Positions 14,245 to 30,479 of a stretch of 60,418 bases of DNA are shown here, piece by piece (position 1 is the first letter of the stretch; every line of letters starts with the position of its first letter). The position numbers were made by a program, and so were the translations under genes. The stretch covers positions 1-60,418 of the forward strand of contig JAJYLR010000004.1 of assembly GCA_021787535.1 (NCBI GenBank), written 5' to 3'. The stretch comes from a bacterium (GTDB lineage: Bacteria > Patescibacteriota > CPR2 > UBA1875 > JAJYID01). Below the pieces are notes generated by a model. It did no database searches and was not told the origin of the DNA. It worked only from the letters and a program-made list of their open reading frames with translations.

Positions 14245-14940
14245 CTATTTTATCTTTTCCAGTTTCCCATCGCGAAGGTGTATTACGCGATTAGCGATCC
14301 TGGTCACATCCGGATTATGAGTAACTATGACAAAAGTTTGTCCGGTTTTTTTATTGAGAACAGTCATCATGTCGATGATCTCATCCCCTGTTTTGGTATC
14401 GAGGTTCCCCGTCGGCTCATCGGCTAGGATAATTGCTGGATTGTTTACAAGGGCGCGGGCAATAGCCACTCTCTGCTGCTGGCCTCCGGAAAGCTGGGTC
14501 GGTTTTGAGCCGGCCCTGTCTTCCATCCCCACTTCTTTTAGATATTTTAACGCTCTCTTTTTTGCCTCTTTCTTCTTAACCCCGGAGTATTTAAGCGGCA
14601 ACATGACATTTTCAAGAGCGGTTAACGTCGGGATTAAGTTATATTGCTGGAATATAAAGCCGACCATTTCCGATCTGATCTTTGGATAATCGCCTTTTTT
14701 AACCTTTGTAACGTCTTTTTTATCGATCATAACCTTCCCGTTTGATGGTTGGTCGAGAATACCAAACATATTTAGAAGAGTTGACTTTCCCGACCCGGAC
14801 GGTCCCATGACGGCTACAATCTCGCCTTTTTTGATGTCTAAGCTCAGATTATTTAAAGCATGAACAATATTTTCCTTACTCGGTTTATAAGTTTTTGTAA
14901 GCTTTTTTGCTTCTAGTATTTTTTCGTCTTTTTTTACCAT
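14245..14940 (-). CDS. ABC transporter ATP-binding protein (MacB/LolD type)
   Basis: 'GPSGSGKST', 'LSGGQQQRVAIARAL', 'ILADEPTGNLD'. Confidence 0.9.
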   Translation of the reverse strand: MVKKDEKILEAKKLTKTYKPSKENIVHALNNLSLDIKKGEIVAVMGPSGSGKSTLLNMFGILDQPSNGKVMIDKKDVTKVKKGDYPKIRSEMVGFIFQQYNLIPTLTALENVMLPLKYSGVKKKEAKKRALKYLKEVGMEDRAGSKPTQLSGGQQQRVAIARALVNNPAIILADEPTGNLDTKTGDEIIDMMTVLNKKTGQTFVIVTHNPDVTRIANRVIHLRDGKLEKIK

Positions 14941-15003
14941 TTATCTACCTTTGAAATTTGTAATTTTATTGGAAATTGGTCATTGAAAATTGGAAATTTT
15001 TAG

Positions 15004-16299
15004 CTATTCTTCCTTTAAAGCCGTTACCGGATTGATCCTTGCGGCATGCCACGCCGGATAAAGACCGGCCACAGCGCCGATAACAATTGAAAATACAATC
15101 GCCCCAATAGCTAACCTCGGGGTAATGGCAAATATCTGGATATTCTTTGATGCTGTAGACATATTTATCAGATACACGATCCCACTGCCGATACCCAAGC
15201 CGATAAGCCCGCCAAAGAGACCGATGGTTGAAGATTCTATTAAGTATTCTTTGATAATATGCCGGTCGCGCGCGCCAACCGCTTTTTTGACACCTATTTC
15301 TCTTTTGCGCTCTGAAACCGACATGATCATGGTGTTAATTACGGACAACGAACCAACAATAAGAGCAATTAACGCGCTTCCGACAATCACAGCGTTTAAG
15401 AGCACCGATACCGATTCGATCATTTTCTTGCCTTGCGCCGGCGAAAGCGCCTTCACGTCCTTCACTTTCGACTCAATATCTTTGGAAACCTGCTCCGGAT
15501 CTGTTCCGTCTTTCCAGCTCACTGAAGCCGAGGAGTTAATGTTGTTTATGTCGAAGTTAGCAGCTTGTGTGATTTGTCTCTGAACCGCGGGTGACAGATA
15601 TTGAAACGATGGGTCGGCCATAGTCTGCTTGGCGCTTGCCGACTTGTCGCGCAGATCTTTGAGAGTTGGTGTCTGGTCGATTAAAATCTCGCGCGCATCT
15701 CCTATATTCATAAATATATAACTATCCGGGCCTGTCATGGTTTTTTCCAGTACTCCAACTACCCTGAAATTCTTGTTGTCGATCTTAAACGTATCACCGG
15801 TTTTTAAATTTTTATCAGATGCAATATCTGAACCGACCGAAACAACTCCCGTGTCACCTTTTTGAATCATTCTGCCGCTTTTCATAGTCAGGGTTTTCCA
15901 GTTCTCATTTTTGAAGCTGCTGTTTAGGTCAACACCCATAATGGTCGGCGGCGGACCGAAACTAATTCCCGATCCTCCGTTTTTCTTATCAGGATCAATG
16001 TAGCTTGTTTCCACTCCTGCTTGGACCGCCTTAACTCCATCAACTTTCGCAACCTGATTAATCTGGTCTTGTGTTAAAAATCCCGAACCAGAGAAAGGAT
16101 TTCTCTCTCCGCTTGCTCCTTGAGAAGAAGAAACCGTAATCTGTCCTGTCAGAAACTGTTCGCCTCCCTTGAGCATTAAATTCATCTTCTCAGCAAGAGA
16201 ACCAAGGACTACCAGAGCTAAAACACCGATCACAATGCCAAAAATAGTGAGCGTTGTCCTCAGCTTCCTCCGAAACATGTTGCGAATCGTCTCAAACAT
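15004..16299 (-). CDS. ABC transporter permease (MacB/FtsX-like)
   Basis: N-terminal TM helix, large periplasmic domain, C-terminal FtsX-type TM bundle; adjacent to the ATPase. Confidence 0.85.
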   Translation of the reverse strand: MFETIRNMFRRKLRTTLTIFGIVIGVLALVVLGSLAEKMNLMLKGGEQFLTGQITVSSSQGASGERNPFSGSGFLTQDQINQVAKVDGVKAVQAGVETSYIDPDKKNGGSGISFGPPPTIMGVDLNSSFKNENWKTLTMKSGRMIQKGDTGVVSVGSDIASDKNLKTGDTFKIDNKNFRVVGVLEKTMTGPDSYIFMNIGDAREILIDQTPTLKDLRDKSASAKQTMADPSFQYLSPAVQRQITQAANFDINNINSSASVSWKDGTDPEQVSKDIESKVKDVKALSPAQGKKMIESVSVLLNAVIVGSALIALIVGSLSVINTMIMSVSERKREIGVKKAVGARDRHIIKEYLIESSTIGLFGGLIGLGIGSGIVYLINMSTASKNIQIFAITPRLAIGAIVFSIVIGAVAGLYPAWHAARINPVTALKEE

Positions 16300-17002: not shown

Positions 17003-17746
17003 CTAAATGATAGTGACTATTTCTAACGCAATTTGAAACAACTTTGCTGCATCTCGTTCATTTTCTTGTAAGTTTTTTCCTGCAATATTATCATCAGTAA
17101 TTAAGAAACTAGCAAAACTTATATTACGAAATTGTGCGACGGCAAGTAAAGACGCCAATTCCATATCAACAGCTACACATCCATTGTTTTTCATTGTCTG
17201 TAACTTTCCAGCCGTCTCTCTATATACTGCATCAGTTGTCCAGACCTTACCATTTAAAAAAGATACATTATGTTTGGAAAATAATTCATTCATTACACTT
17301 ACTAACTTAGTGTCTTGAATAACTTCGTCACTCGGTGGCAGATAATGATAACTTACACCTTCTTCTCGATAAGCTGATTTAGGGATGATGATTGTGTTTT
17401 TAGCAATTTTTTTGTCCATTGCACCACACGTACCAAATGCAACGATTTTATTGATTCCACTTGCAATTAACAACTCCATTTCTACGGCAGACATAGCAGA
17501 ACCACCAACTCCATCGGCTGGTGATACCAGTAATATATTTTCTTGACCATATTTATATATAAAAAAATTATCAAATACTCCTTTTTTGTCGTTTTTAATA
17601 GGGGAAACCTCAATATTGTCTTGTTTTTTTATGTAGACTTCCCATACCTCATCATCAAATATCATTAAAGCTCTTGATGGACTACCGAATAAATCAAGAA
17701 CACTGGGGTTGAATAATGCACTTTTGTCTGGATCAAATTTAATCAT
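17003..17746 (-). CDS. Nucleoside phosphorylase (PNP/UDP family 1)
   Basis: 'AFGTCGAM', 'VAVDMELASL' family motifs. Confidence 0.7.
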   Translation of the reverse strand: MIKFDPDKSALFNPSVLDLFGSPSRALMIFDDEVWEVYIKKQDNIEVSPIKNDKKGVFDNFFIYKYGQENILLVSPADGVGGSAMSAVEMELLIASGINKIVAFGTCGAMDKKIAKNTIIIPKSAYREEGVSYHYLPPSDEVIQDTKLVSVMNELFSKHNVSFLNGKVWTTDAVYRETAGKLQTMKNNGCVAVDMELASLLAVAQFRNISFASFLITDDNIAGKNLQENERDAAKLFQIALEIVTII

Positions 17747-17951
17747 TTTTCTTTTTAATTTATGCTAATAGCTTGATTAAAATTTATTATAACAATTTTC
17801 TCATTAATTTACCTCTTTGTCTTCATAGGATCATTCATTGAGTATTGGAATTTAAGACTAATGAATTGACAGACAATACATAATCAGTTATAATGTGCAC
17901 CAATTACTTTACAGTAATGTACATTACATTATACAAAAGAATGAGGTAAGG

Positions 17952-19265
17952 ATGAAACTCTCGAATTACAACATCATAACAGACACGACCAATGGGAAAG
18001 TTCTCTACAACACCATGTACAAGAATATCGCCGAGATTTCACTCAAAGAGCACAAAATGCTCACGAGTATGGCAAAAAATGGTTTTATTGTATCAGGCGA
18101 AGACGAATCTAATTTGCTCAAGCTTCTAGCTGAGCAGATGTTCGTCGTCGATGACGATCTTGACGAACTTGCACATTTCAAGCTTGCATGGAACAGAAGC
18201 CTCTACTCGTCTAGCATTATTCGACATACCGTACTACCGAATCTTGCATGCAACCTGGACTGTCCGTACTGCTTCGAGAACAAAACAGGAAAGTTCATGA
18301 GCAGAGAAACCGAACATAACTATCTTGCATGGCTTGAGCCACAGCTCGCGGATGCAAAATATCTTTACTTGTCATGGTTTGGTGGCGAGCCCCTACTTTC
18401 GAAGGGTACGATCGAGCGCATCACAGAGAGCATTTTACGCATGGAAAAACAGTATGGGTTTGAGTATGCCGCGAATATTGTAACAAACGGCGTACTGCTG
18501 GATGAGAAGTTCATCCAGAAAGCTGAGGCGCTACGTATCAAGAGTGTGCAAGTAACTCTTGATGGTGACAAGGATGTCCACAATGCCTATCGTTTCACCA
18601 AGGGCTCGGGCGCGGGAACTTTCGACACTATTCTGGAGAACATGGCGAGTTTCTGCAGGAATAGTGACTCCGATGTCGCATCAAGTGTACGAGTGAATGT
18701 GACGGATGAAAACTACCAGAGCATATCTGCGTTACTCGAAAAGATACCCGCCGTCATGAAGGAGAAATGTGTCCTGCTGTTCCGATGGGTCTACTCTCAT
18801 TCCGACGGAAGAAACCCCGGGAAGGAGTTCTCAAGGAAGATGAAGGGGGTATCTCCTATCTCAAACCTTCTACCACTCTATGAGCTTGCGGAAGAAATGG
18901 GCTTCACGACGAACTCATTTGATGAGGGACTCACCTACAACTTCTGTGAGTGTGATTTTGATAAGGCCTTCTTAATTGACCAGGACGGCGACCTGTTCAT
19001 GTGTTCACATAGCATGGATAAGAAGGAATCTGTCGGTAACGTCCGTAGTGGATTTTCATCCCAAAGAGACCTTTCAAGATACGCAAGGTTCGTGAACACA
19101 ACTCCATTCGACGACGAAGAATGTCTCGAATGTATTATCTTACCTCTGTGCAAGGGGGGCTGCAGAAAAGCACGTTATCTCGGTACAAAAGTGTGTTCTG
19201 ACGTACTTTTGGATATAACGGGATACGTCCTTCAGAAGTATCGGAAGACACAGCTACTCACGTAG
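17952..19265 (+). CDS. Radical SAM/SPASM peptide-modifying enzyme
   Basis: GAGGTAAGG SD + ATG 17952; 'CNLDCPYCFE' CxxxCxxC; C-terminal SPASM 'CLECIILPLCKGGCRK'; N-terminal 'LSNYNII...GKVLYNT' typical of peptide maturases. Confidence 0.85.
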   Translation: MKLSNYNIITDTTNGKVLYNTMYKNIAEISLKEHKMLTSMAKNGFIVSGEDESNLLKLLAEQMFVVDDDLDELAHFKLAWNRSLYSSSIIRHTVLPNLACNLDCPYCFENKTGKFMSRETEHNYLAWLEPQLADAKYLYLSWFGGEPLLSKGTIERITESILRMEKQYGFEYAANIVTNGVLLDEKFIQKAEALRIKSVQVTLDGDKDVHNAYRFTKGSGAGTFDTILENMASFCRNSDSDVASSVRVNVTDENYQSISALLEKIPAVMKEKCVLLFRWVYSHSDGRNPGKEFSRKMKGVSPISNLLPLYELAEEMGFTTNSFDEGLTYNFCECDFDKAFLIDQDGDLFMCSHSMDKKESVGNVRSGFSSQRDLSRYARFVNTTPFDDEECLECIILPLCKGGCRKARYLGTKVCSDVLLDITGYVLQKYRKTQLLT

Positions 19266-19317
19266 TAGCAGGTGAGAATGTAAAAATGTCTATGTATTCT
19301 AGGAGGAGGTGATATAG

Positions 19318-19476
19318 ATGAAAACACTTCAGACGATGACAAGCAGCCAGAACTTTATCAGCGCGGCCAAGGTCACGACGGAAAACCTCCCAACTGGAGA
19401 ATCAATTTCCAAGGCCGTCACTATGGGTAAAAAGATCTGCTGCGGCTCATCCTACAAAGAGCAGGCCAACAAGTAG
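19318..19476 (+). CDS. 52-aa candidate RiPP precursor peptide (unannotated in track)
   Basis: AGGAGGAGG SD 8 nt before ATG; MKTLQTMTSSQNFISAAKVTTENLPTGESISKAVTMGKKICCGSSYKEQANK; 52 nt after the maturase stop; terminator follows. Confidence 0.55.
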   Translation: MKTLQTMTSSQNFISAAKVTTENLPTGESISKAVTMGKKICCGSSYKEQANK

Positions 19477-19525
19477 ACCTGCGCCGGGTGATACCCACCG
19501 ATTTATAAACCCAAATCGTTAAAAC

Positions 19526-19560
19526 AAGACCGCCCCTCCAAGGGCGGTCTTCTCTTTTCT
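19526..19560 (+). terminator. Intrinsic terminator of the rSAM-peptide cassette
   Basis: aagaccgccc/gggcggtctt 10-bp stem, then a T-rich tract. Confidence 0.65.
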
Positions 19561-19749
19561 AAAATTTAATTTCTATCTGCGAGAAAAAACTTAGTCAAGC
19601 AATGATGTTTTCTTGGTAGACCAAGTGCTACAGTATTCGAACCTTGATCTACGCGGGGACATCTACGCATTAAAGCGGGTTGAGAAGCAGTTTAAGAAGA
19701 TTTTGATGTCATAATGGTGGACTCTGTAGTGGCTTAACCGAGCTTTTTT

Positions 19750-21879
19750 TTATTCTAAATCATCTTGGGAAGCGGTAAAGAGTTTCGTTGCTTGGTCCGT
19801 TTCTCTAGATAAATCGATAATCATCGGCATATTAGATTTAACAGCCTTGCCAGCTACCACGGCGTGATATTGTTTAAGATTTGGTAAAGCCTTAACCATG
19901 TCTTTTCCGACGTAATTACCTAAGAACGTAAAGCTTGTTTCATCAAACGCCTGAAAGCAAATCACAGTATTGCACTGAGTAAGAACCGTTTTCGAAACAT
20001 TTGCTGTTCTTTGAGCAATTACTAAGAAACCAACGCCATACTTTCTGCCCTGAAGGGCAATCTGTCCTATCTTGCTTACCAGTCCTTTATTGCTAGAATA
20101 ATCCCCTAAGTCGCCCAAAAATGAAGTCTCGGGAACAACAGTGTGTGCCTCCTCAAGAACAATACAAAACTTCCTCTTCTGATTTTGTTTTGCATATATG
20201 AAAATTCCTTCCAGAAACAATTGAGTAAATTCTAGAACGAAAGATGTGTTGGATAAATCGGGTAGTTCAAAGATTGCTATGTTGTTTTTAGAACTTGCGA
20301 ACGCCTCTATATGTTCGTTTAGCTTCTCCTGGATTTGCCTCTTGTACTTAAGCACTTCGGCCGATTTCTTCCCAGCAGCCTCTTTTTTAGCAATTTTTTC
20401 TTCGACCACTGGGAGAGCCTCAGGTTTTATAAGTGGTTCCGGAGATAAATCGGACAAGATGTCCTTCCACTCTCCAGTTAAATCAACGCAAATGATTTTC
20501 GTATCGCAACTCAGTTTCTTCACGATTTCATGGGCCAAAAAGGTTTTTCCCGAACCTGTCACACCCAGTAATGCTAAGTGATGGCTCACTGCCTCACTCA
20601 AATTCATGACTGATGGTAAAGACGTTCCAGGAATGGTGCCAATTTCGTATAAAGGATACGAAAATTTGCCTACAGAGATTTTTGATGTATTTGCTTTGAA
20701 CAGCGCGGTATTTATTGAAGGGACCCATCCGAACTTTTGGAATGACAACATATCATTTTGCCATTCTCCTAATTGTATTGCCTCTCCCTCGATGAAGCTG
20801 GATTCGTTCATGGCTTCAAGTTTCTCTTTTTCCGTACTGCCGCTTATTACTTGATAATAGAGCGTCTTATTTGCAACTCTTAGTTCAAGTAAGTCCCCTT
20901 CCTGCAGGTCATCTTTCTTCTTAGAGTACTCGAACTTGATGTTTCCGATGGTCGATCCCTCGATAATTACCCCTACAAGGTCATCAAGCTTTAATTGCTT
21001 ACTGGTTTCATTAATTTCCGAGGTTTCGGTAATTTTATAAACGATATTCTTTTCCAGCTTCGTAATTTCTTTCTTAGGGTTAGATAATTGGAGGATTTTT
21101 GCCCATTTTTCCTGATTCAGAAGATAGGTATCAAAAACTATACCGGTAATCACAAGGTCATCGGCATCCTGCATGGAATATCTAAATTTGACCATATCGT
21201 ACTTCTTGATATTCTTCCTATCTTCGAAGAGTTTTACTAGAAATATCCTTTTCGATTGCACCCCGAAGATTTCTCCGATTTGATTCTTATTGTCCTGCCG
21301 CGTCAGTACCGAAAACTTCCCATGAATTTTTTTTGGATTTATGGTGAGAATGAAGAACCACAAGACAAAGAACGACAACGAATAAAAGTCCTGCAGTGAA
21401 TAGAAAGTGACTATAAAATATAGAAAAACAGCAGAATAAAGTACTCTACCCTGACCGAAAATAACAACAACGTTCTTCAAACTAGTTGACGTTTTGTTCT
21501 TCCAATGTTCCGGACTTTTATCTTTGTCATCAAGCGAGAGGGCAATTATTGACGTCACCAGAAGCAAAACTAACGCCACAATCGCTCCGACCCATATCTT
21601 TCCATTTTCAAATGAGCTTTGAATCGCGAGGAGCACCAACAGAAGTGGTATAACGTTAGTTATCACGTTTTTGGGAGAAGTATAGAACGGTTCAATAAAT
21701 AGCAATGAAAATAGCACCATAAAAATGCCTGAATAGAACCATAGGTCCTTCATTTCCGTGCTTGGCAAGATTTCGCCATAGAATAAAAGTTGCAACGCAA
21801 CAAAAAGGGAGAAAAATATTCCGAATATCACGAACCTATTTCTCACCAAGATAGTCAAATTGTTTGAATGCTTTTTCAT
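19750..21879 (-). CDS. Membrane-anchored HerA/DUF87-family P-loop ATPase
   Basis: About 5-6 hydrophobic helices in the first about 185 aa; 'LLGVTGSGKTF' Walker A, 'FCIVLEEAH' Walker B, 'LQGRKYGVGFLVIAQR'. Confidence 0.75.
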   Translation of the reverse strand: MKKHSNNLTILVRNRFVIFGIFFSLFVALQLLFYGEILPSTEMKDLWFYSGIFMVLFSLLFIEPFYTSPKNVITNVIPLLLVLLAIQSSFENGKIWVGAIVALVLLLVTSIIALSLDDKDKSPEHWKNKTSTSLKNVVVIFGQGRVLYSAVFLYFIVTFYSLQDFYSLSFFVLWFFILTINPKKIHGKFSVLTRQDNKNQIGEIFGVQSKRIFLVKLFEDRKNIKKYDMVKFRYSMQDADDLVITGIVFDTYLLNQEKWAKILQLSNPKKEITKLEKNIVYKITETSEINETSKQLKLDDLVGVIIEGSTIGNIKFEYSKKKDDLQEGDLLELRVANKTLYYQVISGSTEKEKLEAMNESSFIEGEAIQLGEWQNDMLSFQKFGWVPSINTALFKANTSKISVGKFSYPLYEIGTIPGTSLPSVMNLSEAVSHHLALLGVTGSGKTFLAHEIVKKLSCDTKIICVDLTGEWKDILSDLSPEPLIKPEALPVVEEKIAKKEAAGKKSAEVLKYKRQIQEKLNEHIEAFASSKNNIAIFELPDLSNTSFVLEFTQLFLEGIFIYAKQNQKRKFCIVLEEAHTVVPETSFLGDLGDYSSNKGLVSKIGQIALQGRKYGVGFLVIAQRTANVSKTVLTQCNTVICFQAFDETSFTFLGNYVGKDMVKALPNLKQYHAVVAGKAVKSNMPMIIDLSRETDQATKLFTASQDDLE

Positions 21880-21885
21880 AAATAT

Positions 21886-22722
21886 CTATTGGTTTTTGGC
21901 AACTTGATAGATTGCCAATTTTAAGACCTGCCAGCACAACTTCGCTGTATGCTCGTCCGGATTAAACTTGTGGCTTGCTTGCTGATACGGATGTATGTAA
22001 TTGCGGAAGTCTCGCAATACATGACTAAATTTTCTTACATCCTCATTAATTATCTCTGTTTCCTTAGCCACGTCTATAAAATTACTGAGCGTCCATTCAT
22101 GAAACTGTAAAACCTTCCCTTCTTTTCTTGGGCTTGCCTTAGCTTGATTAAACTTACGAGGATGGTTTAATGCTACGCCGAGCAAGATACCCTCAAGAGT
22201 GCTTCCACATAGGAAGATGCAAGCAAGGGAAGCTTTCGAATTCAAACATTTCTTTATTTCTTGAAGGCGCTGATTGAGTATGTCCGTGATTGCTCCATTT
22301 AGCTTTAGGGAGCTGACTGACACTTCTTTGAATTCCTTCTTTATGAACTCGTCTTCTGTCACCCCTTCTTCAACCTGGGTTTCACCGGAAATGCGTGTGG
22401 CAATCTTTAAGCATTCCTCATATAAGGCTTCCTCATTATTTTTCACTTCTTGGTCGCTTAGTAAGGTTTCCGTCCGCCAGCATTCCAATAAATCCTTTAA
22501 TACTTTGCCTACAATGCTATCCGGTTCTATTGACCATAGGGCACGTAATCTATTGGCCTTGGAGCCACTGCTGTAATCGTATTTATCATCCCAAATGTCA
22601 ACCCCAACGCTATCATAAATAAACTCACCAAAGGATTGATTATTAAAATCCAATACATATCCACTAGACATACCTAAGAGCTTCTCTAATTTAATCTTGT
22701 CAATATTGGTCAGTGTTGACAT
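21886..22722 (-). CDS. Abi-like protein with C-terminal HEPN-type motif
   Basis: 'HVLRDFRNYIHPYQ' (R-x6-H); N-terminal 'SGYVLDFNNQSFGEFI...GSKANRLRALW'; ends 6 nt before the ATPase gene. Confidence 0.5.
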   Translation of the reverse strand: MSTLTNIDKIKLEKLLGMSSGYVLDFNNQSFGEFIYDSVGVDIWDDKYDYSSGSKANRLRALWSIEPDSIVGKVLKDLLECWRTETLLSDQEVKNNEEALYEECLKIATRISGETQVEEGVTEDEFIKKEFKEVSVSSLKLNGAITDILNQRLQEIKKCLNSKASLACIFLCGSTLEGILLGVALNHPRKFNQAKASPRKEGKVLQFHEWTLSNFIDVAKETEIINEDVRKFSHVLRDFRNYIHPYQQASHKFNPDEHTAKLCWQVLKLAIYQVAKNQ

Positions 22723-22951
22723 ATTTCTACCATCTTTATTTAGTTGCTATTTTACCATTATTTTGTTTGTGCCGTAACATCTAAATGACAACATTCTCTG
22801 GATGTGTTTTGGATTGGGCTGCATTCCTGAAAATGGTCCGCAGGAAATGTATACGACTTCTGCTGAGCATAGATACAACCAAAGTATTATTGAAATCAGT
22901 GCAAGACATGGTAAGCTTTTCGAACCCCATTGTCACTGTTTCCACTACGGA

Positions 22952-22979
22952 AAAGACCGCCTTTTGGCGGTCTTTTTTT
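22952..22979 (-). terminator. Intrinsic terminator after the methyltransferase gene
   Basis: aaagaccgcc/ggcggtcttt 10-bp stem, tttt loop, T tracts on both strands. Confidence 0.6.
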
Positions 22980-24156
22980 ACTTTAAGAACAAAGCTGGTT
23001 GGGGTTGTTTGATATAGGAGTTTCGGAAATCAAGTAAAAATTCGATGTGGGAAGTCCGGTTGTATCGCGATGTCTTGAGAGTTGAGGCCGCTTTCTGTGT
23101 TTGTTGTTTATGGCGAAAGATCGCCTCGCCTGCCATAACGCCTAGGCCAACGGGAACTGCGTTTCCAATTTGTTTGTAGATGTTGGTTAGGTTTCCTGAG
23201 AACTTCCAATCATCAGGAAACATCTGAATTCGAGCATATTCCTGAACACTCAGGGGGCGCATTTCCTCGGGATGGGCTAAAAGCGTTGCAGGCATCGTTG
23301 GATGAGTGACGAGAGTAGGTGATGGTTTATCCCACGAAAGCCGGCGATAGAAACCAGTTTTTCCTCCCCCCAATCTATAAGACTTACCCATTGCCTCCTC
23401 ATGCAAATGTTTCGGTAAATGTTTCCAGTACTGCCCTGCTTTTATAAACGCGAGATATTTGGTCTGTCTCTTGCTTAAAGGCAAGTAGTCATGGTGCCTA
23501 TCCTGAATATCGCCCACAGCGTCCCGGAAGGTTCTGAGGTTTAGGGCTGTTGTTGGTTGAGGTATCTCGATCTCATCGCCGTCTAGGGCGCCAAATATGA
23601 TTACCCGTTCCCTTCTTTGTGGCACTCCATACAATGATGCGTCAAATAGACTAAATGAAACTTTATATCCCAATTTTTTGAATTCCTCGGTGAGAAACCA
23701 CACTACACTGCCAGGTAAATCTTCGATAAGGCCGTAGTCACCGAATTCAGGAGGAGTATTAGCTAACTTCGCAGACAACAGACCTCTAACATTTTCAAGG
23801 ATAAAATACTTCGGCTTTATTTCCTTTATAAATTCCAAATAACGGATTATCAGATTACCGCGGAAGTCTTCCAAGCTTCTTCTTCTTCCCGCCGTACTAA
23901 ACGCTTGGCATGGCGGCCCACCTGCGACCAAATCAATACTGCCTTTCTTCATTCGCAGATCGCTAAGTATCTTGGAGGGTTCTGTTTGTCCAATATCGTC
24001 GTAAATTCTTACTTTTGGCCGGTTCGTAGTAATCGTGTTAATACAATGTTTGTCGTTCTCCACGCACGCAAGAATTTCAAAACCGGATGCCTCTAGCCCA
24101 AGATCGAGTCCCATTGCACCTGAAAATAGAGATAAAGCTTTTAGCTTTTTTCGCAT
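22978..24156 (-). CDS. dcm: DNA (cytosine-5)-methyltransferase
   Basis: Motifs I 'LSLFSGAMGLDLG', IV 'GGPPCQAFS', VI 'ENVRGL', VIII 'QRRERV', X 'GNAVP'. ATG 24156 overlaps the upstream TAA by 1 nt. Confidence 0.9.
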   Translation of the reverse strand: MRKKLKALSLFSGAMGLDLGLEASGFEILACVENDKHCINTITTNRPKVRIYDDIGQTEPSKILSDLRMKKGSIDLVAGGPPCQAFSTAGRRRSLEDFRGNLIIRYLEFIKEIKPKYFILENVRGLLSAKLANTPPEFGDYGLIEDLPGSVVWFLTEEFKKLGYKVSFSLFDASLYGVPQRRERVIIFGALDGDEIEIPQPTTALNLRTFRDAVGDIQDRHHDYLPLSKRQTKYLAFIKAGQYWKHLPKHLHEEAMGKSYRLGGGKTGFYRRLSWDKPSPTLVTHPTMPATLLAHPEEMRPLSVQEYARIQMFPDDWKFSGNLTNIYKQIGNAVPVGLGVMAGEAIFRHKQQTQKAASTLKTSRYNRTSHIEFLLDFRNSYIKQPQPALFLK

Positions 24157-25148
24157 TAGATATAATTCTCCAACATGTCGTCGATTGAACCGCTCGGTGA
24201 TTTCGCTTCCCACTGTTCGACCAACTCAATTATCTTATTCTCTATAAGGTCAATAAAGCTTTCAGAAAGTATCCCCGAAGAAGAAGCTTCAAGTAGTGAA
24301 AATAGAACCTTGTGGTAATTTTCCCGCTCACTGATGAAGTCCCAAAATTCCCTGCCAATCTTCATTTTGGTATCAGCGTCCCTGAGGTTTGCCGTAATCT
24401 GGTTTGAGATCCTTTCTCGTTTCCCATATGTCATGCCGAGGATTCCTTCGACATTGTCCCTATCCCTCTCAATCCGTTCAATTGCTCGGTTGAGACTGGT
24501 GACCATACCTACATTCATGGTATTTGGCCCACTTTTTACCTGAATATAGTAATCTGTTTCGCCGAGTGATTTGATCAGGTCAAAATTAGTGCCAGTCTGG
24601 CCTTCAATGGCGACGTCGTTGTCTTTACACCCCGAGTACTTAGCCATTGTCTCGACTGCATTGCCCCAGGATGTGACCACTGAACGCGTCACTGTCTGAT
24701 AAACATTGAATGCAATCACCTTGCCAGGTGTATCGAGAGTGAGAGCTTTAGCTAACAGCGGGTTAATATCGAAGTTATCTAGGGATAAGCCTTCAACCAT
24801 TATTGCTTGTTCCTGAAGGAACTTCCGGCCCAAGTAAAAAACCCAAGCTTCTTCAATTGGCCTGCCTTTGGGTATTGGCTCTTTAGCTGTTAGCAGGTCA
24901 TCAATTTGAGCTTCCCGCAATAAAGGAGCCCCGGAAGTTTTCTTGATCCTCGCAAAACGCTCTTTATCAGCTTGCAAAAAGGCCTGAAGGTCATGTTCAA
25001 AATCCACCGCGATTGCGCCCGCCGTGGCTGGTCCAATTCCAGAGACGTTCGAGCATACAACGACAAAAAATTGCTCGATGTTATCATCTTGCCCCTCGAT
25101 TAGATGCTCATCTGGGACTTGGAAGCCGTCTAGTCTTGGATCAGGCAT
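24156..25148 (-). CDS. Type II restriction endonuclease (specificity unknown)
   Basis: Translationally coupled to the m5C methyltransferase gene; 'NFDLI...YIQVKSGPNT' PD-(D/E)xK-like core; N-terminal HhH-like 'VSGIGPATAGAI'. Confidence 0.55.
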   Translation of the reverse strand: MPDPRLDGFQVPDEHLIEGQDDNIEQFFVVVCSNVSGIGPATAGAIAVDFEHDLQAFLQADKERFARIKKTSGAPLLREAQIDDLLTAKEPIPKGRPIEEAWVFYLGRKFLQEQAIMVEGLSLDNFDINPLLAKALTLDTPGKVIAFNVYQTVTRSVVTSWGNAVETMAKYSGCKDNDVAIEGQTGTNFDLIKSLGETDYYIQVKSGPNTMNVGMVTSLNRAIERIERDRDNVEGILGMTYGKRERISNQITANLRDADTKMKIGREFWDFISERENYHKVLFSLLEASSSGILSESFIDLIENKIIELVEQWEAKSPSGSIDDMLENYI

Positions 25149-25214
25149 TTACTCCTTTCGTTCCTTATTTCTTCTCCCCTAATATACCTTAAAAATTAGT
25201 TGATAAAAATATTT

Positions 25215-25655
25215 TTATTTGTTAGTTAATCGGGAGGCGATTGCCTCTTTAACTTTTGCCACACAAAATTCAAGTTCTTTATTGATCTCATTATCAGAAA
25301 ACCTTAATACAAGCCAGCCATTGTTTGAAAGCTCTTCGTTCACTTTCTTGTCCCTGGCCATATTCCTTTCAATCTTCTTAATCCAAAAATCCCGGTTGGT
25401 TTTAATCTTCTTCTTCTTTTCCGACCAATCAAGGCCGTGCCAGAAAGTGCTGTCACAAAAGACTGCGACCCTGGGGCCAATGAAAACGATATCCGGGGTT
25501 CCTTTACAGCCCCGATAATTCTTCCTATATCGGAAGCCCTCGGCCCAAAGTGCCTTCCTCAATCTCAACTCAATCGAGGTATCTCGGCCCCGTATACGCG
25601 ACATCGTATAACTGACAACGGACGGATCTTTTTCTTTCTTTGCTTTGCTTGCCAT
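25215..25655 (-). CDS. vsr: Very-short-patch repair endonuclease
   Basis: 'SRIRGRDTSIELRLRKAL', 'GTPDIVFIGPRVAVFCDSTFWHG'; ATG at 25655. Confidence 0.85.
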   Translation of the reverse strand: MASKAKKEKDPSVVSYTMSRIRGRDTSIELRLRKALWAEGFRYRKNYRGCKGTPDIVFIGPRVAVFCDSTFWHGLDWSEKKKKIKTNRDFWIKKIERNMARDKKVNEELSNNGWLVLRFSDNEINKELEFCVAKVKEAIASRLTNK

Positions 25656-25824
25656 TATTCTTTGACAGAAAATCAGGCCCGATGATAGATTATCCGTTTG
25701 ATGGGCCAATCTGACTATCTTGGTCTTGAAAGCGATCTGGCCGACTAATCATATCGCTTTTAGCCCAAAAGCTCATCTTCTAGTTCGTTTCTGCTCCAAA
25801 TAGTGAAAGGAAGGGAACAGCCCC

Positions 25825-26367
25825 ATGTCTTTTACCTCGTTTTTCGTGATCTTGATTATCGCCCTGGTCGTAATTGCCGTGCTCAGAATGAGCAGTAGGC
25901 CAAAAGAGGAAAACGTCGTTCAGAGATGGGGCGCCTATCTTCCGGGGAAGAAAGAAGCCGGTGAGGAATATTTGGAAATGGCTGAAAAAGAATTCGCCAG
26001 TCGAAATACAGATTTACGCCATGAGAGAATCTATTTCAAACTGGCCAGCAAAGAAGGCCCTGCATTAAGAATCATACACAGTCCGACTTATTCGAGCTAC
26101 ATCGCCTATGACACAACTGGCGATGACCTCTTCCTTCATTACGTTCTTTACAGAAGAGGCGATTTTCTTTATGCAATCCCAATGGTCGGTTGGCTGTTTT
26201 TCCGGCTGTTTCACAACGTTTTCGTCCATGACCATAACAAGCTCATCGGCTTTGCCTCAATGACGATTGACTGTGCCAAGGAAGCCGCCGGAGACCTCAT
26301 GGACAAGTTCAATATGGACAGGACGAAGGGAATCAGGCCGTCCAGCGGAAAGCTGGGTGCGCTTTAA
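25825..26367 (+). CDS. Hypothetical membrane-anchored protein
   Basis: N-terminal TM helix plus a second hydrophobic segment; 4-nt convergent overlap with the T4CP-like gene. Confidence 0.5.
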   Translation: MSFTSFFVILIIALVVIAVLRMSSRPKEENVVQRWGAYLPGKKEAGEEYLEMAEKEFASRNTDLRHERIYFKLASKEGPALRIIHSPTYSSYIAYDTTGDDLFLHYVLYRRGDFLYAIPMVGWLFFRLFHNVFVHDHNKLIGFASMTIDCAKEAAGDLMDKFNMDRTKGIRPSSGKLGAL

Positions 26368-27731
26368 TCAAAAAATTTATATGGCTCTTCCGGTTCAGAT
26401 GCTTTCGAGGCAGGAAATGTAACATCTTCGTCCAGCTTAGCCAAACTGAGGGTCTTGCCTGAATTCTTGTTGATCTGTCGAAGCGTCGCTAGATTTCCTT
26501 CGAGGTGGGAGCTTTCATCCAGGTCGAAAGTCCGAAACATCATCGAGTTTTTGCCCTTGGTTTTTAAAATGGCAACCTGGATGTCCATGTCCATCAGCTC
26601 GCTTATACCTTGTTCTCTTTGTTCGTCTTTTGTGAAGTAGGTATATGACATTTCGTGTCTGTCCTTAACATCCCACGGGTCGTATTCCTTCATATATTTT
26701 ATGATCAGTTCAGCGTCCTGTCTGTCGCATCTGTAAATGACGAAATTCTTGGCGTTGCCGAGAATAATATCCCTTAGTTGCTGATCTAGCTGGACAAGGC
26801 TTTGATGAGCAAGAACTAACGATAAGCCATATTTCCTGGCCTCGCTCATAATCTCAGCAAAACTCAGCGTTGCATAGTTCTGAAACTCGTCAACATAAAG
26901 ATAAAAAGGTTTTCTCTCTGATGGTGGAAGATCTACTCTCGACATGGCCGCCATTTGAATTTTGGCGACGAAGAGCGCACCGAGCAGGAAGCTGTTAGTT
27001 CTGAGTACTCCTTTAGCCAGGTTAATAAGAACCGTTTGTTCTTTGTCCATGATCTGCCTGAAATCTATGGTTGACTTCTTGGCAGAAAGCATAAGGCGTA
27101 TTCTCGGGTCGCTGGTAAATGAAGAAACTTTGTTGAGAGTTGATTCAACGTTAGAGATTCTGTCTGCTTCAGACCATCTCTCAAATCTGTCATGCCAGAA
27201 ATGATCTACTCCCTCATAAGAGACATACTTCATTTTCTCTTTGCGGAAACTATCGTTTGTAAGAAGCGGTTCGATGTCTAACATCGTTCCACCCGCTTCG
27301 ATGAGGGTCAAAACAGAATTCCGCAAAATCTCTATTAGCCGAGGCGTCTTGTCTTCTGAGAGATTCCATATCTTCCTGAAAACCTCAACCAGCTCAAGCA
27401 TTTGAGTATAAGGATCAATGCCTGGTTGAACTTCAAGTGGGTTAAAACCAATGATATTGGCCGGATCGGTCATCTCAACTAAAGTAACGTTTCTAAAATC
27501 GCCAAGATTTCCAACGATGTCGTTAATGAGGTCGCCGTGAGGATCAATAACTCCGCACCCATTTCCGTTGAAAATGTCGTCGAGAATCCAGGTCGCAAGT
27601 CCTTTGGATTTGCCAACGCCGGAACTGCCCAGGACGTAAACGTGAGTCGATCTGTCCTCCTCGGGCAAATAAAAACCGACGATTTCGTCGGCATCATCAA
27701 AAGTCATTCCGAGTTTAAGAGAATTGAACAT
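26364..27731 (-). CDS. Soluble TraD/VirD4 (T4CP)-like P-loop ATPase
   Basis: 'VYVLGSSGVGKSKGL' Walker A, 'FYLYVDEFQNYA' Walker B, 'YGLSLVLAHQSLVQL'; no TM segment. Confidence 0.7.
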   Translation of the reverse strand: MFNSLKLGMTFDDADEIVGFYLPEEDRSTHVYVLGSSGVGKSKGLATWILDDIFNGNGCGVIDPHGDLINDIVGNLGDFRNVTLVEMTDPANIIGFNPLEVQPGIDPYTQMLELVEVFRKIWNLSEDKTPRLIEILRNSVLTLIEAGGTMLDIEPLLTNDSFRKEKMKYVSYEGVDHFWHDRFERWSEADRISNVESTLNKVSSFTSDPRIRLMLSAKKSTIDFRQIMDKEQTVLINLAKGVLRTNSFLLGALFVAKIQMAAMSRVDLPPSERKPFYLYVDEFQNYATLSFAEIMSEARKYGLSLVLAHQSLVQLDQQLRDIILGNAKNFVIYRCDRQDAELIIKYMKEYDPWDVKDRHEMSYTYFTKDEQREQGISELMDMDIQVAILKTKGKNSMMFRTFDLDESSHLEGNLATLRQINKNSGKTLSLAKLDEDVTFPASKASEPEEPYKFFD

Positions 27732-27753
27732 CGTGATTAAGGAAAAAGATCTC

Positions 27754-28272
27754 CTATGCGAACTCCTTCAAAATTTTATTGAGTTCATATATTAGATGCT
27801 GGAATGGATCATCTCCCCAGGTATTTGGGTACCTTAATCCATCCGATTCATAGTGCCATCCTAACTGGTTGCTAAATTCAGCTCTTGTCGTATATCCATT
27901 GTCTGAGCCAAGGCGACTCGACCGATCGTCATTTACACCAAATCGTTTTATCCCACTTCTATAAACTCGGTAACTGTCCGTATCTTCTTGCTCGTCCCAA
28001 ACTCCGGCATGAATAATGAATCCCTCCATTTCAATGCCCAGCATTTCCAATTTTTCGAAAAAATCCTTAAGCAAACGGGTAACCTCAGCCTGAAATTCTG
28101 CTTCCTGCCCCCGTTCTATCTTCTGCTCTTCCAGCTGTTGTGTAGAAATAGTTAATCTTTTATCTCTTATTTCCATTAGGCTTTCGATATCCATTATGCC
28201 TTCAGCCTGTGGAGATGATGAAGGTATATCTTTTTTTTTGTTTTTTCTTGAAAATTCCCAAGCCTTCTCCAT
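27754..28272 (-). CDS. Hypothetical protein (172 aa)
   Basis: ORF packed between the nuclease-like and ATPase genes (gaps of about 22 nt); coiled-coil N-half. Confidence 0.5.
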   Translation of the reverse strand: MEKAWEFSRKNKKKDIPSSSPQAEGIMDIESLMEIRDKRLTISTQQLEEQKIERGQEAEFQAEVTRLLKDFFEKLEMLGIEMEGFIIHAGVWDEQEDTDSYRVYRSGIKRFGVNDDRSSRLGSDNGYTTRAEFSNQLGWHYESDGLRYPNTWGDDPFQHLIYELNKILKEFA

Positions 28273-28293
28273 TGGAACAGAATGTTCTCCAAA

Positions 28294-29151: not shown

Positions 29152-29214
29152 GTCTTCGACGTAGAAGGCTTTTAGGAATCTGAATTATATGCCGGAAAAC
29201 AAATTATTTCCAAT

Positions 29215-29243
29215 GAGAAAAGCCGACGGTTCGAACGTCGGCT
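29215..29243 (-). terminator. Intrinsic terminator
   Basis: agccgacg/cgtcggct stem; T tract on the minus strand. Confidence 0.55.
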
Positions 29244-29269
29244 CCTCGCAAGGCAGATAACTCAGGCGC

Positions 29270-29659: not shown

Positions 29660-29779
29660 GGATACTCCTTCCAGTTGGGATTGATTAAGGTGCAGGTGGG
29701 AATCCAAGCACAAGGGTTGTGCGAGGATTAGCTTATAATAACACAAGTATTATAGTATGTCAAGTATATTCTGTTTGGC

Positions 29780-29812
29780 AAGAAAAAGGCACAGCTTTTT
29801 ATGCTGTGCCTT
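29780..29812 (-). terminator. Intrinsic terminator after radC
   Basis: aaggcacagc/gctgtgcctt 10-bp stem followed by T tract on the minus strand. Confidence 0.6.
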
Positions 29813-29819
29813 GTGCGCA

Positions 29820-30236: not shown

Positions 30237-30313
30237 TTCTTCCTCCTTTGATTTATGGCATGCAAAAGCCAAGGGTGGGTTGGAAACGCGATTGGTGGGA
30301 TTGGTGAGGTACT

Positions 30314-30467: not shown

Positions 30468-30479
30468 GCCCTGGCGGGC

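What the first reader, a model, noticed from the sequence alone, without database searches (positions are those of the whole stretch)
19750..22722. HEPN-motif Abi-like protein plus membrane-anchored HerA/DUF87 ATPase: candidate undescribed two-gene defence cassette
Seen in sequence:
- A 278-aa ORF (21886..22722) ends 6 nt before a 709-aa ORF (19750..21879) on the same strand.
- The pair has its own upstream non-coding region (22723..22951). A hairpin terminator separates it from the R-M operon.
- The 278-aa protein ends with 'HVLRDFRNYIHPYQ', a HEPN-type R-x6-H motif. Its N-terminal 'SGYVLDFNNQSFGEFI...GSKANRLRALW' module is one I recall from abortive-infection-type proteins; this is unverified.
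- The 709-aa protein has about 5-6 hydrophobic helices in residues about 15-185. These are followed by a HerA/DUF87 core: 'LLGVTGSGKTF', 'FCIVLEEAH', 'LQGRKYGVGFLVIAQR'.

Established knowledge:
- HerA-family ATPases partner with effectors in SIR2-HerA and DUF4297-HerA defence systems.
- HEPN domains are common abortive-infection RNases.
- Defence genes cluster next to R-M systems on mobile islands.

Inference: a membrane-tethered HerA-type ring coupled to a HEPN effector is not a combination I recognise as a named system.
Basis: partly seen in the sequence, partly recalled or inferred. Interest (0 to 1): 0.75.

Follow-up and report, generated by a model that had tools for sequence, protein, structure and literature searches.

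The report
Two unrelated defence genes, not a pair
The two adjacent genes are real, but they are separate restriction-modification-associated modules that happen to sit together here: an AbiJ-like HEPN RNase of a known kind, and an uncharacterised, widespread membrane-anchored HerA ATPase that is the more interesting of the two.

Summary
A 278-aa ORF (21886-22722) and a 709-aa ORF (19750-21879) lie 6 nt apart on the minus strand, between a terminator that ends the Dcm/REase/Vsr operon and a terminator of their own. The 709-aa protein has six TM helices, a beta-rich region and a HerA ATPase. The 278-aa protein has an AbiJ-type N-terminal module and a DUF4145-like HEPN domain with an invariant R-x6-H motif.

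In 93 unique loci with the ATPase family and 93 with the 278-aa family, the two never co-occur. This includes the closest relatives (70-74% identity). Each gene on its own is typically embedded in R-M operons, often in the hsdS-hsdR slot, and the ATPase also occurs alone between housekeeping genes.

The HEPN protein belongs to a class described in 2013 (AbiJ-NTD plus DUF4145 in R-M operons), with experimentally studied DUF4145 relatives (RAZR, Ishtar). The 6TM-HerA family is large (at least 557 species; 544 clusters at 50% identity) and strongly conserved. PADLOC has no dedicated model for it, and I found no description in the literature I could search. It is a candidate stand-alone, membrane-located defence motor. 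Here both genes are cargo of an integrated mobilisable element.

The parts
22950..22977 (-). Intrinsic terminator hairpin that ends the Vsr-REase-Dcm operon. It marks the upstream boundary of the unit.
   Evidence: Read directly from the sequence: GACCGCC-AAAA-GGCGGTC followed by TTTT.
22757..22936 (-). Leader with three sigma-70-like promoter candidates for the 278-aa and 709-aa unit.
   Evidence: Consensus scan. The count is not above the shuffled expectation, so these are candidates only. No convincing small ORF lies in this leader.
22378..22722 (-). 278-aa protein, N-terminal all-alpha module (about residues 1-115). This is an AbiJ-NTD-type putative sensor domain.
   Evidence: AF2 pLDDT is 84-95 over this region. 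The same module is fused to Abi_C (PF14355, E=8e-14) in L229, L231 and L232. On plasmids it occurs in 'abortive infection family protein' records and in a 'restriction endonuclease'.
21886..22305 (-). 278-aa protein, C-terminal DUF4145-like HEPN domain (about residues 140-278, plus the stop codon) with an invariant R237-x6-H244 motif.
   Evidence: DUF4145 E=3.4e-4, 21 bits, below the gathering cutoff of 23.1. 28 of 46 family members hit DUF4145 at E<0.01. The motif is invariant. The only plausible Foldseek hits are HEPN domains, with target TM-scores of 0.61-0.66 and E-values above 1.
21340..21834 (-). 709-aa protein, six-TM membrane domain (residues 16-180), including the conserved TM2-TM3 turn motif IEPFYTSPKNVITN.
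   Evidence: Hydropathy and positive-inside analysis. AF2 predicts helices with pLDDT 72-92. The motif is invariant in close relatives and is the majority consensus across the superfamily.
20650..21312 (-). 709-aa protein, beta-rich region (residues 190-410). Its second half aligns with the N-terminal barrel region of HerA.
   Evidence: AF2 predicts strands, but at low confidence (pLDDT 40-73). In the PDB profile search, profile positions 318-483 align with residues 24-200 of the HerA chain 9c1m.
19795..20649 (-). 709-aa protein, HerA-type RecA-like ATPase (residues 411-695) with Walker A G439-K445, Walker B E576/E577 and R612.
   Evidence: PF01935. PADLOC HerA models, down to E=2.5e-28. PDB HerA chains at E=1e-20. 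Foldseek HerA hits at E=3e-11. The motif residues are invariant across members of 25-60% identity.
19526..19551 (-). Terminator hairpin about 200 nt downstream of the ATPase stop codon. It marks the 3' end of the unit.
   Evidence: GAAGACCGCCC-TTGGAG-GGGCGGTCTT followed by GTTTTAA on the minus strand.

Best explanation
The two genes are independent, individually mobile, R-M-associated modules. In this genome they have landed side by side, and are probably co-transcribed, in the cargo region of an integrated mobilisable element, directly downstream of a Type II Dcm/REase/Vsr system.

Gene A (278 aa) is an AbiJ-like abortive-infection protein. A variable N-terminal sensor module is joined to a DUF4145-type HEPN RNase. 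By inference, the N-terminal domain or an associated R-M complex holds the RNase inactive, and an invader signal releases it to cleave RNA and stop translation. This follows the PrrC paradigm for HEPN genes embedded in R-M operons.

Gene B (709 aa) is a stand-alone membrane-embedded HerA-type motor. By inference, six subunits form a ring with 36 TM helices and a cytoplasmic pore that binds DNA. ATP-driven engagement of invading DNA at the membrane then either gates the conserved TM domain, causing membrane permeabilisation and abortive infection, or moves the DNA towards or away from the co-encoded restriction enzymes.

What is shown: the domain architectures, the conservation of catalytic residues, the absence of co-conservation, and the R-M and defence-island context of each family. 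What is inferred: RNase activity, hexamer formation, the trigger, and the role of the TM domain as effector.
For: Independence. There were 0 co-occurrences in 93 unique ATPase loci and 93 loci of the 278-aa family. The closest ATPase relatives, at 70-73% identity, lack gene A. The closest gene-A relative, at 70% identity, lies between HsdS and HsdR.

Context of gene A. 27 of 90 loci have hsdS less than 3 kb upstream and hsdR less than 3 kb downstream (examples).

Context of gene B. No neighbour family occurs in more than 26% of loci. The commonest are HsdM/S (24 loci), HsdR (22), RhuM (11), Fic (6), ParB-methyltransferase (5), DUF2779 (5) and GmrSD (3). MmeI-type and Eco57I-type enzymes lie directly upstream in L028 and L030. 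In Campylobacter the gene sits alone between PFOR or CarB and other genes. Gene overlaps of 4 nt occur within hsdM-B-hsdS in L006 and L017.

Identity of gene A. DUF4145 hits, an invariant R-x6-H motif, HEPN-like fold matches, its N-terminal module shared with Abi_C proteins, and a UniRef label for one homologue of 'Abortive infection protein-like C-terminal domain'.

Identity of gene B.. The whole superfamily keeps the 6TM-beta-DUF87 architecture with no fused effector domain and with invariant Walker A, Walker B and arginine residues.

Mobile-element context. A serine recombinase (32843-34381) lies next to tRNA-Glu, together with an M78 peptidase, a Replic_Relax protein, RadC and a TraG-like ATPase.

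Literature. HEPN genes embedded in R-M operons and the PrrC model are described in PMC3710099. DUF4145 has been shown to be a defensive HEPN RNase in RAZR (PMC13017515) and has anti-plasmid activity in Ishtar (bioRxiv 10.64898/2026.07.06.735840).
Against: In this window the two genes are 6 nt apart and share one leader and one terminator, so they are probably co-expressed. A lineage-specific functional interaction cannot be excluded.

The HEPN assignment rests on sub-threshold profile scores and non-significant structural matches. The profile of the family found no match among PDB sequences.

No experiment links either family to defence. The association with R-M genes was measured with representative queries and ORF clustering, not with a full annotation pipeline. 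About half of the ATPase loci show no recognisable defence gene within 5 kb.

The AF2 monomer model of the ATPase has only moderate confidence (mean pLDDT 68).
Confidence: 0.85

Rival explanations
1. A and B form a true two-gene system. The membrane HerA ring would sense or thread invader nucleic acid and activate or scaffold the HEPN RNase, by analogy with SIR2-HerA and DUF4297-HerA.
For: The genes are 6 nt apart, on the same strand, and share one leader and one terminator. HerA rings do scaffold effectors in known systems (PDB 8xav, 8wld, 8sub, 9c1m).
Against: There were 0 co-occurrences in 93 plus 93 loci, including the nearest relatives. Both families are found as lone inserts in R-M operons. 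B is found with no partner at all in Campylobacter. A's modular N-terminal and C-terminal domains follow the self-contained AbiJ architecture.
Confidence: 0.07
2. B is part of the DNA-transfer machinery of the integrated element. It would be a membrane-anchored coupling protein or an FtsK-like translocase, not a defence gene.
For: The element encodes a Replic_Relax protein and a TraG/VirD4-like ATPase. B and its relatives give weak TrwB_AAD_bind, FtsK_SpoIIIE and P-loop_TraG hits. N-terminal TM helices followed by a ring ATPase is the layout of FtsK and VirD4 (my own knowledge).
Against: The TrwB hit is below Pfam's cutoff (17.8 against 20.5 bits). The best profile and fold matches are HerA, not VirD4 or FtsK. 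In 93 loci the recurrent neighbours are R-M genes, RhuM, Fic and GmrSD, not relaxases or T4SS genes. The element already has its own TraG-like ATPase, at 26364-27731.
Confidence: 0.04
3. B is not an immune effector. It would be an accessory of R-M systems or of DNA uptake, for example a motor that presents incoming DNA to restriction enzymes at the entry site without killing the cell, or a function unrelated to conflict.
For: It is tightly embedded and translationally coupled between hsdM and hsdS or between hsdS and hsdR. It has no recognisable toxin domain. HerA/FtsK 'capture' modules that feed DNA to nucleases have been proposed (PMC12839542).
Against: It also occurs without any R-M gene nearby, and alone between housekeeping genes. 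That points to an autonomous function. The membrane domain is very strongly conserved in sequence, which suggests it does more than tether the protein.
Confidence: 0.2

Closest known systems
AbiJ-family and DUF4145-family HEPN proteins embedded in R-M operons (Anantharaman et al. 2013, PMC3710099), in particular the 'AbiJ-NTD1 + DUF4145' architecture listed there
   Same: Gene A has a variable, mostly alpha-helical N-terminal module of about 115-140 aa followed by a HEPN domain with a conserved R-x(4-6)-H motif. The same N-terminal module is also fused to Abi_C HEPN domains and to a restriction endonuclease, which matches the fusion partners the paper lists for AbiJ-NTD1. Its typical location is inside R-M operons.
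   Different: I could not check identity with AbiJ-NTD1 itself, because Pfam has no model for it and the paper's alignments were not available. The DUF4145 score is below Pfam's cutoff. In this window the gene follows a Type II R-M operon, not a Type I operon.
RAZR / PD-T7-4 (zinc finger plus DUF4145 HEPN RNase; PMC13017515) and Ishtar (DUF4145 or DUF3644 HEPN; bioRxiv 10.64898/2026.07.06.735840)
   Same: These are single-gene defence proteins whose effector is a DUF4145-type HEPN domain. In RAZR the arginine and histidine of the motif are essential for defence.
   Different: Gene A has a different partner domain: an AbiJ-type N-terminal module rather than a zinc finger, and in a different order from Ishtar, whose HEPN domain is N-terminal. 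The family profile shows no sequence-level match to any PDB chain. The motif spacing is R-x6-H here and R146...H154 in RAZR.
PrrC / EcoprrI (an anticodon nuclease embedded in a Type Ic R-M operon)
   Same: An NTPase-containing or HEPN-containing gene is inserted between the hsd genes. The proposed logic is that the R-M complex silences a second-line suicide effector until a phage inhibits restriction. RhuM and Fic are co-residents in PrrC-type loci, and they also occur in the loci that carry B.
   Different: PrrC is a single ABC-ATPase plus HEPN polypeptide. Here the HEPN protein (A) and the NTPase (B) are separate genes that are not linked elsewhere. B is a HerA-type ATPase and is an integral membrane protein.
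SIR2-HerA (Nezha) and DUF4297-HerA two-gene defence systems
   Same: B's ATPase is closest in sequence and fold to these defence HerAs. Its Walker motifs are conserved and it has a barrel-like N-terminal region.
   Different: B has no SIR2 or DUF4297 partner, and no conserved partner at all. It carries a 6-TM domain and an extra beta-rich region that those HerAs lack. Its NCBIfam HerA_antiphage scores are far below the cutoffs (64 against 800 bits).
Tmn (the 'transmembrane NTPase' single-gene system of Gao et al. 2020; cited from my own knowledge)
   Same: It shares the concept of a single-gene, membrane-embedded P-loop NTPase found in defence islands.
   Different: As I recall, Tmn is a KAP-family NTPase with its TM helices inserted inside the NTPase domain. 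B is a HerA/FtsK-class ATPase with an N-terminal 6-TM block. PADLOC returned no hit other than HerA and mad8 models.
FtsK/SpoIIIE translocases and VirD4/TraG coupling proteins
   Same: They share the layout of N-terminal TM helices followed by a ring ATPase of the FtsK-HerA superfamily that translocates DNA at the membrane (my own knowledge). B gives weak Pfam hits to these families.
   Different: The hits are below the family cutoffs. The genomic context is R-M and defence genes, not cell division or conjugation. The beta-barrel region and the best matches are of the HerA type.

Membership tests
HEPN superfamily (gene A, C-terminal domain) | A conserved R-x(4-6)-H catalytic motif | tested here: met
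   R237-x6-H244 lies within 'LRDFRNYIHP', and R237, R240, N241 and H244 are invariant in 46 sequences.
HEPN superfamily (gene A, C-terminal domain) | A significant profile match to a family of the HEPN clan | tested here: inconclusive
   DUF4145 gives E=3.4e-4 at 21 bits, below the gathering cutoff of 23.1. 28 of 46 members hit it at E<0.01, with a best value of 3.9e-5. UniRef labels one homologue 'Abortive infection protein-like C-terminal domain'. hhalign against one neighbouring Abi_C protein found nothing.
HEPN superfamily (gene A, C-terminal domain) | The alpha-helical HEPN bundle fold | tested here: inconclusive
   The AF2 model is all-alpha, with pLDDT 85.9. The only Foldseek hits with probability 0.6-0.8 are HEPN proteins (1o3u, 1ufb, Csm6), with target TM-scores of 0.61-0.66 for the single-domain HEPN chains 1o3u, 1ufb and 1wol, but all E-values are above 0.5.
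HEPN superfamily (gene A, C-terminal domain) | Metal-independent endoribonuclease activity | not testable with these tools
   This needs biochemistry.
AbiJ-like architecture (N-terminal module plus HEPN) | An N-terminal module shared with bona fide AbiJ/Abi_C proteins and with other conflict-related effector domains | tested here: met
   Residues 1-119 match proteins whose C-terminal domain is Abi_C (PF14355, E=8e-14 and 9.6e-14, above the cutoff). They also match a protein annotated as a restriction endonuclease and proteins named 'abortive infection family protein'.
HerA / DUF87 ATPases (gene B) | A PF01935 match above the cutoff, with Walker A, Walker B and arginine residues | tested here: met
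   PF01935 scores 46.1 bits against a cutoff of 23.2. G439, G442, G444, K445, E576, E577 and R612 are invariant in 40 members of 25-60% identity.
HerA / DUF87 ATPases (gene B) | The HerA fold: an N-terminal barrel followed by a RecA-like core | tested here: met
   The top 36 Foldseek hits against the PDB are all HerA, with E-values down to 2.8e-11. The family profile aligns with both the barrel region and the ATPase region of 9c1m. The barrel part of the model has low pLDDT.
HerA / DUF87 ATPases (gene B) | A hexameric ring that translocates DNA | not testable with these tools
   No multimer prediction or biochemistry was available.
SIR2-HerA / DUF4297-HerA (Gao_Her, Nezha) | An adjacent SIR2 or DUF4297 effector gene, co-conserved with HerA | tested here: not met
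   The upstream gene has no SIR2 or DUF4297 hit. No neighbour of B is conserved in more than 26% of 93 loci. NCBIfam HerA_antiphage scores 64.5 bits against a cutoff of 800.
   There were 0 co-occurrences in 93 ATPase loci and 93 loci of the 278-aa family, and none next to the closest relatives.
Conjugative coupling proteins (VirD4/TraG/TrwB) | A family profile match above the cutoff, and a relaxase/T4SS neighbourhood | tested here: not met
   TrwB_AAD_bind scores 17.8 bits against a cutoff of 20.5. The neighbourhoods are R-M and defence genes.
MADS (mad8) | The mad8 ATPase together with the other mad genes | tested here: inconclusive
   The PADLOC mad8 model hits the ATPase core only (E=4.8e-15, residues 432-681). 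That model is 314 positions long and has no membrane part. I did not search specifically for the other mad genes.

The most novel reading that the evidence does not exclude
The 6TM-HerA protein represents an undescribed, widespread, single-gene immune or R-M-accessory module. It would be a membrane-embedded HerA ring that engages invading DNA at its point of entry. It would then either convert ATP-driven DNA engagement into opening of its own conserved 36-helix membrane domain (abortive infection), or pump the DNA out of the cell or towards restriction enzymes. This would be a HerA-based defence with no separate effector protein. It would also be a second kind of gene that rides in the R-M slot, alongside the HEPN, RhuM and Fic toxins.
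Probability: 0.4. Interest if true: 0.7.

Novelty: new variant of a known kind. Interest (0 to 1): 0.45.

Why it matters
The finding corrects a tempting mistake: adjacency and tight spacing inside a defence island do not make a system.

It also isolates a more useful lead. A large and very strongly conserved family of membrane-anchored HerA ATPases (at least 557 species; close relatives share about 65% identity across phyla from CPR bacteria to Bacteroidota) repeatedly occupies the same slot inside R-M operons as known suicide effectors. It has no dedicated PADLOC model and no description in the literature I could search.

If it is a defence gene, it would show that a HerA motor can work without a partner effector and at the membrane. 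That bears on how cells deal with DNA at the moment of entry.

The HEPN gene adds a well-supported member to the AbiJ/DUF4145 class, and illustrates clearly how N-terminal and C-terminal modules are shuffled in that class.

Tried and rejected
1. PADLOC and NCBIfam gave nothing for the 278-aa protein.
2. hhalign of the 278-aa family against a neighbouring AbiJ_NTD3/Abi_C protein from L052 found no relationship.
3. A profile search of the 278-aa family against PDB sequences returned only a spurious DUF507 hit at E=2. No sequence link to RAZR or to any solved HEPN structure could be shown.
4. Foldseek with the whole two-domain model gave no significant hit. A search with the C-terminal domain alone would be cleaner, but the model could not be subdivided.
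5. I tested whether the ATPase has any fixed partner: none is present in more than 26% of loci. I also looked for a small ORF or antitoxin in the leader and found nothing convincing.
6. I considered a conjugation role for the ATPase, because of the TraG-like and Replic_Relax genes in the element. I rejected it on comparative context.
7. Four literature searches for a membrane-anchored HerA in defence found nothing relevant. Iyer et al. 2004, on the FtsK-HerA superfamily, was not available, so an early mention of this family there cannot be excluded.
8. The supplementary alignments of the 2013 HEPN paper were not held in searchable form, so I could not confirm that A's N-terminal module is AbiJ-NTD1.
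9. I did not determine the host organism.


Full report
**1. Observation**

The two ORFs are exactly as described. The 278-aa ORF spans 21886-22722 and the 709-aa ORF spans 19750-21879, both on the minus strand. Six nucleotides separate the TAG stop of the first from the ATG of the second.

Upstream, the C5-methyltransferase gene ends at 22978. It is followed by a strong hairpin with a T-run (GACCGCC-AAAA-GGCGGTC-TTTT). Then comes a leader of about 255 nt with sigma-70-like sites, although these are no more numerous than in shuffled sequence. A second terminator hairpin lies about 200 nt after the ATPase stop codon (19526-19551). In this genome, therefore, the two genes look like a single transcription unit.

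The upstream operon is a Type II R-M system: Vsr (25215-25709), an EcoO109I/TdeIII-like restriction enzyme (24156-25148) and a Dcm-type methylase (22978-24213).

One detail concerns the start of the ATPase. The collection's own gene call for it is 693 aa. However, N14, R15 and F16 lie upstream of that start and are invariant in the family. The 709-aa reading from the ATG at 21879 is therefore the right one.

**2. The 709-aa protein**

- *Membrane domain.* Hydropathy analysis finds six TM helices (16-34, 46-64, 72-90, 95-113, 138-156, 162-180). The N-terminus and the 114-137 loop are positively charged, which places the rest of the protein in the cytoplasm.
- *ATPase.* Pfam DUF87/HerA is above its cutoff. 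PADLOC HerA models match, with E-values down to 2.5e-28. A family profile hits the solved defence HerAs (9c1m, 8xau, 8wiv, 8ziq) at about E=1e-20. That alignment also covers the barrel region upstream of the ATPase.
- *Fold.* The AF2 model has a mean pLDDT of 68. The TM helices score 72-92, the beta-rich middle scores low, and the ATPase scores 60-87. The top 36 Foldseek hits for this model are all HerA.
- *Conservation.* Among 42 relatives from very different phyla, the mean column identity is 65%. An invariant stretch, WFYSG...FIEPYYTSPKNVITN, covers TM2 to TM3.
- *Size of the family.* An exhaustive search with residues 1-420 only (the TM and beta regions) finds 544 clusters at 50% identity. 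Nearly all full-length hits are 680-750 aa. Distant members keep the same architecture and have no added effector domain.
- *Catalytic residues.* Across members of 25-60% identity, Walker A (G439, G442, G444, K445), Walker B (E576, E577) and R612 are invariant. The TM2-TM3 turn motif remains the consensus.
- *Spread.* At least 557 species-level genomes encode a relative, including cultured Campylobacter, Flavobacterium, Flagellimonas and Methylobacillus.

**3. The 278-aa protein**

The family is large: 5751 hits in the 90%-identity collection and at least 570 species genomes. The block SH.LRDFRNYIHPY is invariant and gives an R237-x6-H244 motif.

The evidence for a HEPN domain is consistent but not conclusive:
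- Pfam DUF4145, a family of the HEPN clan, matches residues 155-245 at E=3.4e-4, just below the gathering score.
- 28 of 46 family members hit DUF4145 at E<0.01.
- The AF2 model is confident (pLDDT 85.9) and entirely alpha-helical, with two domains joined by a disordered linker at about residues 113-135.
- Foldseek finds nothing significant. The only matches with good target coverage or probabilities of 0.6-0.8 are HEPN proteins: 1o3u, 1ufb and 1wol (target TM-scores 0.61-0.66, probability 0.28 for 1wol) and Csm6.

The protein is modular. On viral contigs, proteins of about 290 aa carry the same C-terminal domain (up to 59% identity) behind a different N-terminal domain. A 779-aa protein carries it after TPR repeats. 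Proteins of about 262-353 aa carry the same N-terminal domain in front of a bona fide Abi_C domain (PF14355, E=8e-14). On plasmids, the N-terminal module occurs in proteins named 'abortive infection family protein' and in a protein annotated as a restriction endonuclease.

This pattern is the one Anantharaman et al. (2013) describe for AbiJ-NTD1. That domain is mostly alpha-helical, about 140 aa long, and fused to AbiJ, DUF4145, Ymh, REase and other domains. I could not verify identity with AbiJ-NTD1 itself.

**4. Are the two genes a system?**

No.

- The first sample held 37 ATPase loci and two full-length loci of the 278-aa family (plus one N-terminal fragment); neither gene was found next to the other.
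- The larger sample held 93 unique ATPase loci (36-72% identity to the window protein) and 93 loci of the 278-aa family. The overlap was zero.
- The closest ATPase relatives show no 278-aa homologue nearby. P0123 (73% identity) is followed by HsdS and HsdR. P0125 (70%) follows a Type I operon and precedes a giant NOV_C protein. P0124 (71%) has no partner at all.
- The closest relative of the 278-aa protein (P0002, 70%) lies between HsdS and HsdR. P0006, P0007, P0008 and P0028 directly follow hsdS.
- 27 of 90 loci of the 278-aa family have hsdS upstream and hsdR downstream, each within 3 kb.

The ATPase has no fixed neighbour. The commonest are:

| Neighbour | Loci (of 93) |
|---|---|
| HsdM/HsdS | 24 |
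| HsdR | 22 |
| RhuM | 11 |
| Fic | 6 |
| Serine recombinase | 6 |
| ParB-methyltransferase | 5 |
| DUF2779 | 5 |
| GmrSD | 3 |

MmeI-type and Eco57I-type enzymes lie directly upstream in two loci. In Campylobacter the gene stands alone next to PFOR or CarB. In L006 and L017 it overlaps hsdM and hsdS by 4 nt on each side.

Each gene is therefore a self-contained insert that tends to sit inside R-M operons. The two families often occupy the same hsdS-hsdR slot, but in different genomes.

**5. Wider context in the window**

The window is chromosomal: it carries RNase P RNA and three tRNA genes.

The stretch from about 19.3 to 34.4 kb looks like an integrated mobilisable element. It contains:
- a large serine recombinase (32843-34381) abutting tRNA-Glu;
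- an M78/IrrE peptidase;
- a Replic_Relax protein (30480-31337);
- RadC;
- a TraG/VirD4-like ATPase (26364-27731);
- the R-M operon and the two genes studied here, as cargo.

Because the element carries transfer genes, I considered whether the TM-HerA is part of the transfer machinery. Its contexts elsewhere argue against this.

**6. Mechanism**

*Gene A.* The best-supported model is the AbiJ/PrrC logic set out in PMC3710099. An N-terminal sensor, or the associated R-M complex, restrains a HEPN RNase. An invader cue, such as inhibition of restriction, releases it, and RNA cleavage halts translation. A DUF4145-type HEPN domain has been shown experimentally to act as a defensive RNase in RAZR. 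It has anti-plasmid activity in Ishtar.

*Gene B.* Nothing is known experimentally. Three features point to a hexameric motor whose output is at the membrane: the ATPase is intact, the fold is HerA with a barrel, and the only non-motor part is a strongly conserved membrane domain. The motor could gate a pore (abortive infection), or it could move DNA at the entry site for exclusion or for delivery to restriction enzymes. The HerA/FtsK 'capture' idea of PMC12839542 is the nearest published concept, but it concerns cytoplasmic multi-gene systems.

**7. Novelty and score**

The cassette as proposed is not a real system. Gene A is a new member of a class recognised since 2013. Gene B is a new variant of a known kind: a HerA-based conflict ATPase that is membrane-integral and has no partner.

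I found no name, no dedicated PADLOC model and no literature for the gene-B family. My literature access was incomplete, however. Overall interest is moderate, and it rests on the 6TM-HerA family rather than on the pairing.

Noticed in passing
window 19300-34420: This stretch looks like an integrated mobilisable element. It holds a large serine recombinase (32843-34381) whose 3' end overlaps tRNA-Glu (34341-34415) just before RNase P RNA (34553-34938), an M78/IrrE peptidase (32367-32840), a Replic_Relax protein (30480-31337), RadC (29820-30272) and a TraG/VirD4-like ATPase (26364-27731). The R-M operon and the two genes studied here are its cargo. I did not map the exact ends or att sites.
   Followed up: partly
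window 22950-22977 and 19526-19551: The two terminator hairpins that flank the two-gene unit share almost the same stem (AAGACCGCC...GGCGGTCTT). This could be a repeated terminator cassette or a trace of how the module was inserted.
   Followed up: no
L213-L233 (viral contigs); plasmid hits H10, H12, H19: The two halves of the 278-aa protein circulate separately. The C-terminal HEPN domain (up to 59% identity) sits behind at least one other N-terminal domain, and behind TPR repeats in a 779-aa protein. The N-terminal domain sits in front of Abi_C domains and, in Leptospira weilii, in a protein annotated as a restriction endonuclease.
   Followed up: partly
alignment A2, columns about 520-590 (window protein residues about 480-535): The ATPase family has a variable insert between Walker A and Walker B, in three length classes: absent, about 40 aa, and about 50 aa and charged or coiled. 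The classes do not follow overall similarity. This could be a specificity or regulatory element.
   Followed up: no
window 21832-21879: The collection's own gene call for the ATPase is 693 aa, about 16 codons shorter than the 709-aa ORF. N14, R15 and F16 are invariant in the family, so the true start is the ATG at 21879, which lies 6 nt after the upstream stop codon.
   Followed up: yes
L175 (Campylobacter concisus) and L194 (Campylobacter sp.): Here the 6TM-HerA gene is a lone insertion next to housekeeping genes (pyruvate:ferredoxin oxidoreductase; carbamoyl-phosphate synthase large subunit). In L194 it is split into two ORFs of 261 and 458 aa, so it is probably a pseudogene.
   Followed up: partly
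window 25825-26367, 27754-28272, 28294-29151, 29270-29746: Four ORFs of 158-285 aa inside the element have no Pfam match. The 180-aa ORF has an N-terminal hydrophobic segment and lies on the opposite strand to its neighbours.
   Followed up: no
window 17895-19265: A radical-SAM enzyme with a C-terminal cysteine-rich region (SPASM-like, judged by eye) converges on the ATPase terminator. It lies just outside the putative left end of the element. A phosphorylase-family gene (17003-17746) and an ABC transporter pair (14245-16299) follow.
   Followed up: no
L052 / L053: One 278-aa-family member (P0015) sits directly downstream of a separate AbiJ_NTD3 plus Abi_C protein. That makes two different AbiJ-like HEPN genes in tandem with no R-M operon nearby.
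   Followed up: no
L021, L164, L168 (Gracilibacteria / Peribacteria / Absconditabacterales loci): ORFs in these loci, including the ATPase, appear fragmented under genetic code 11. This is expected for lineages that read UGA as glycine, so neighbour calls for these loci are unreliable.
   Followed up: no
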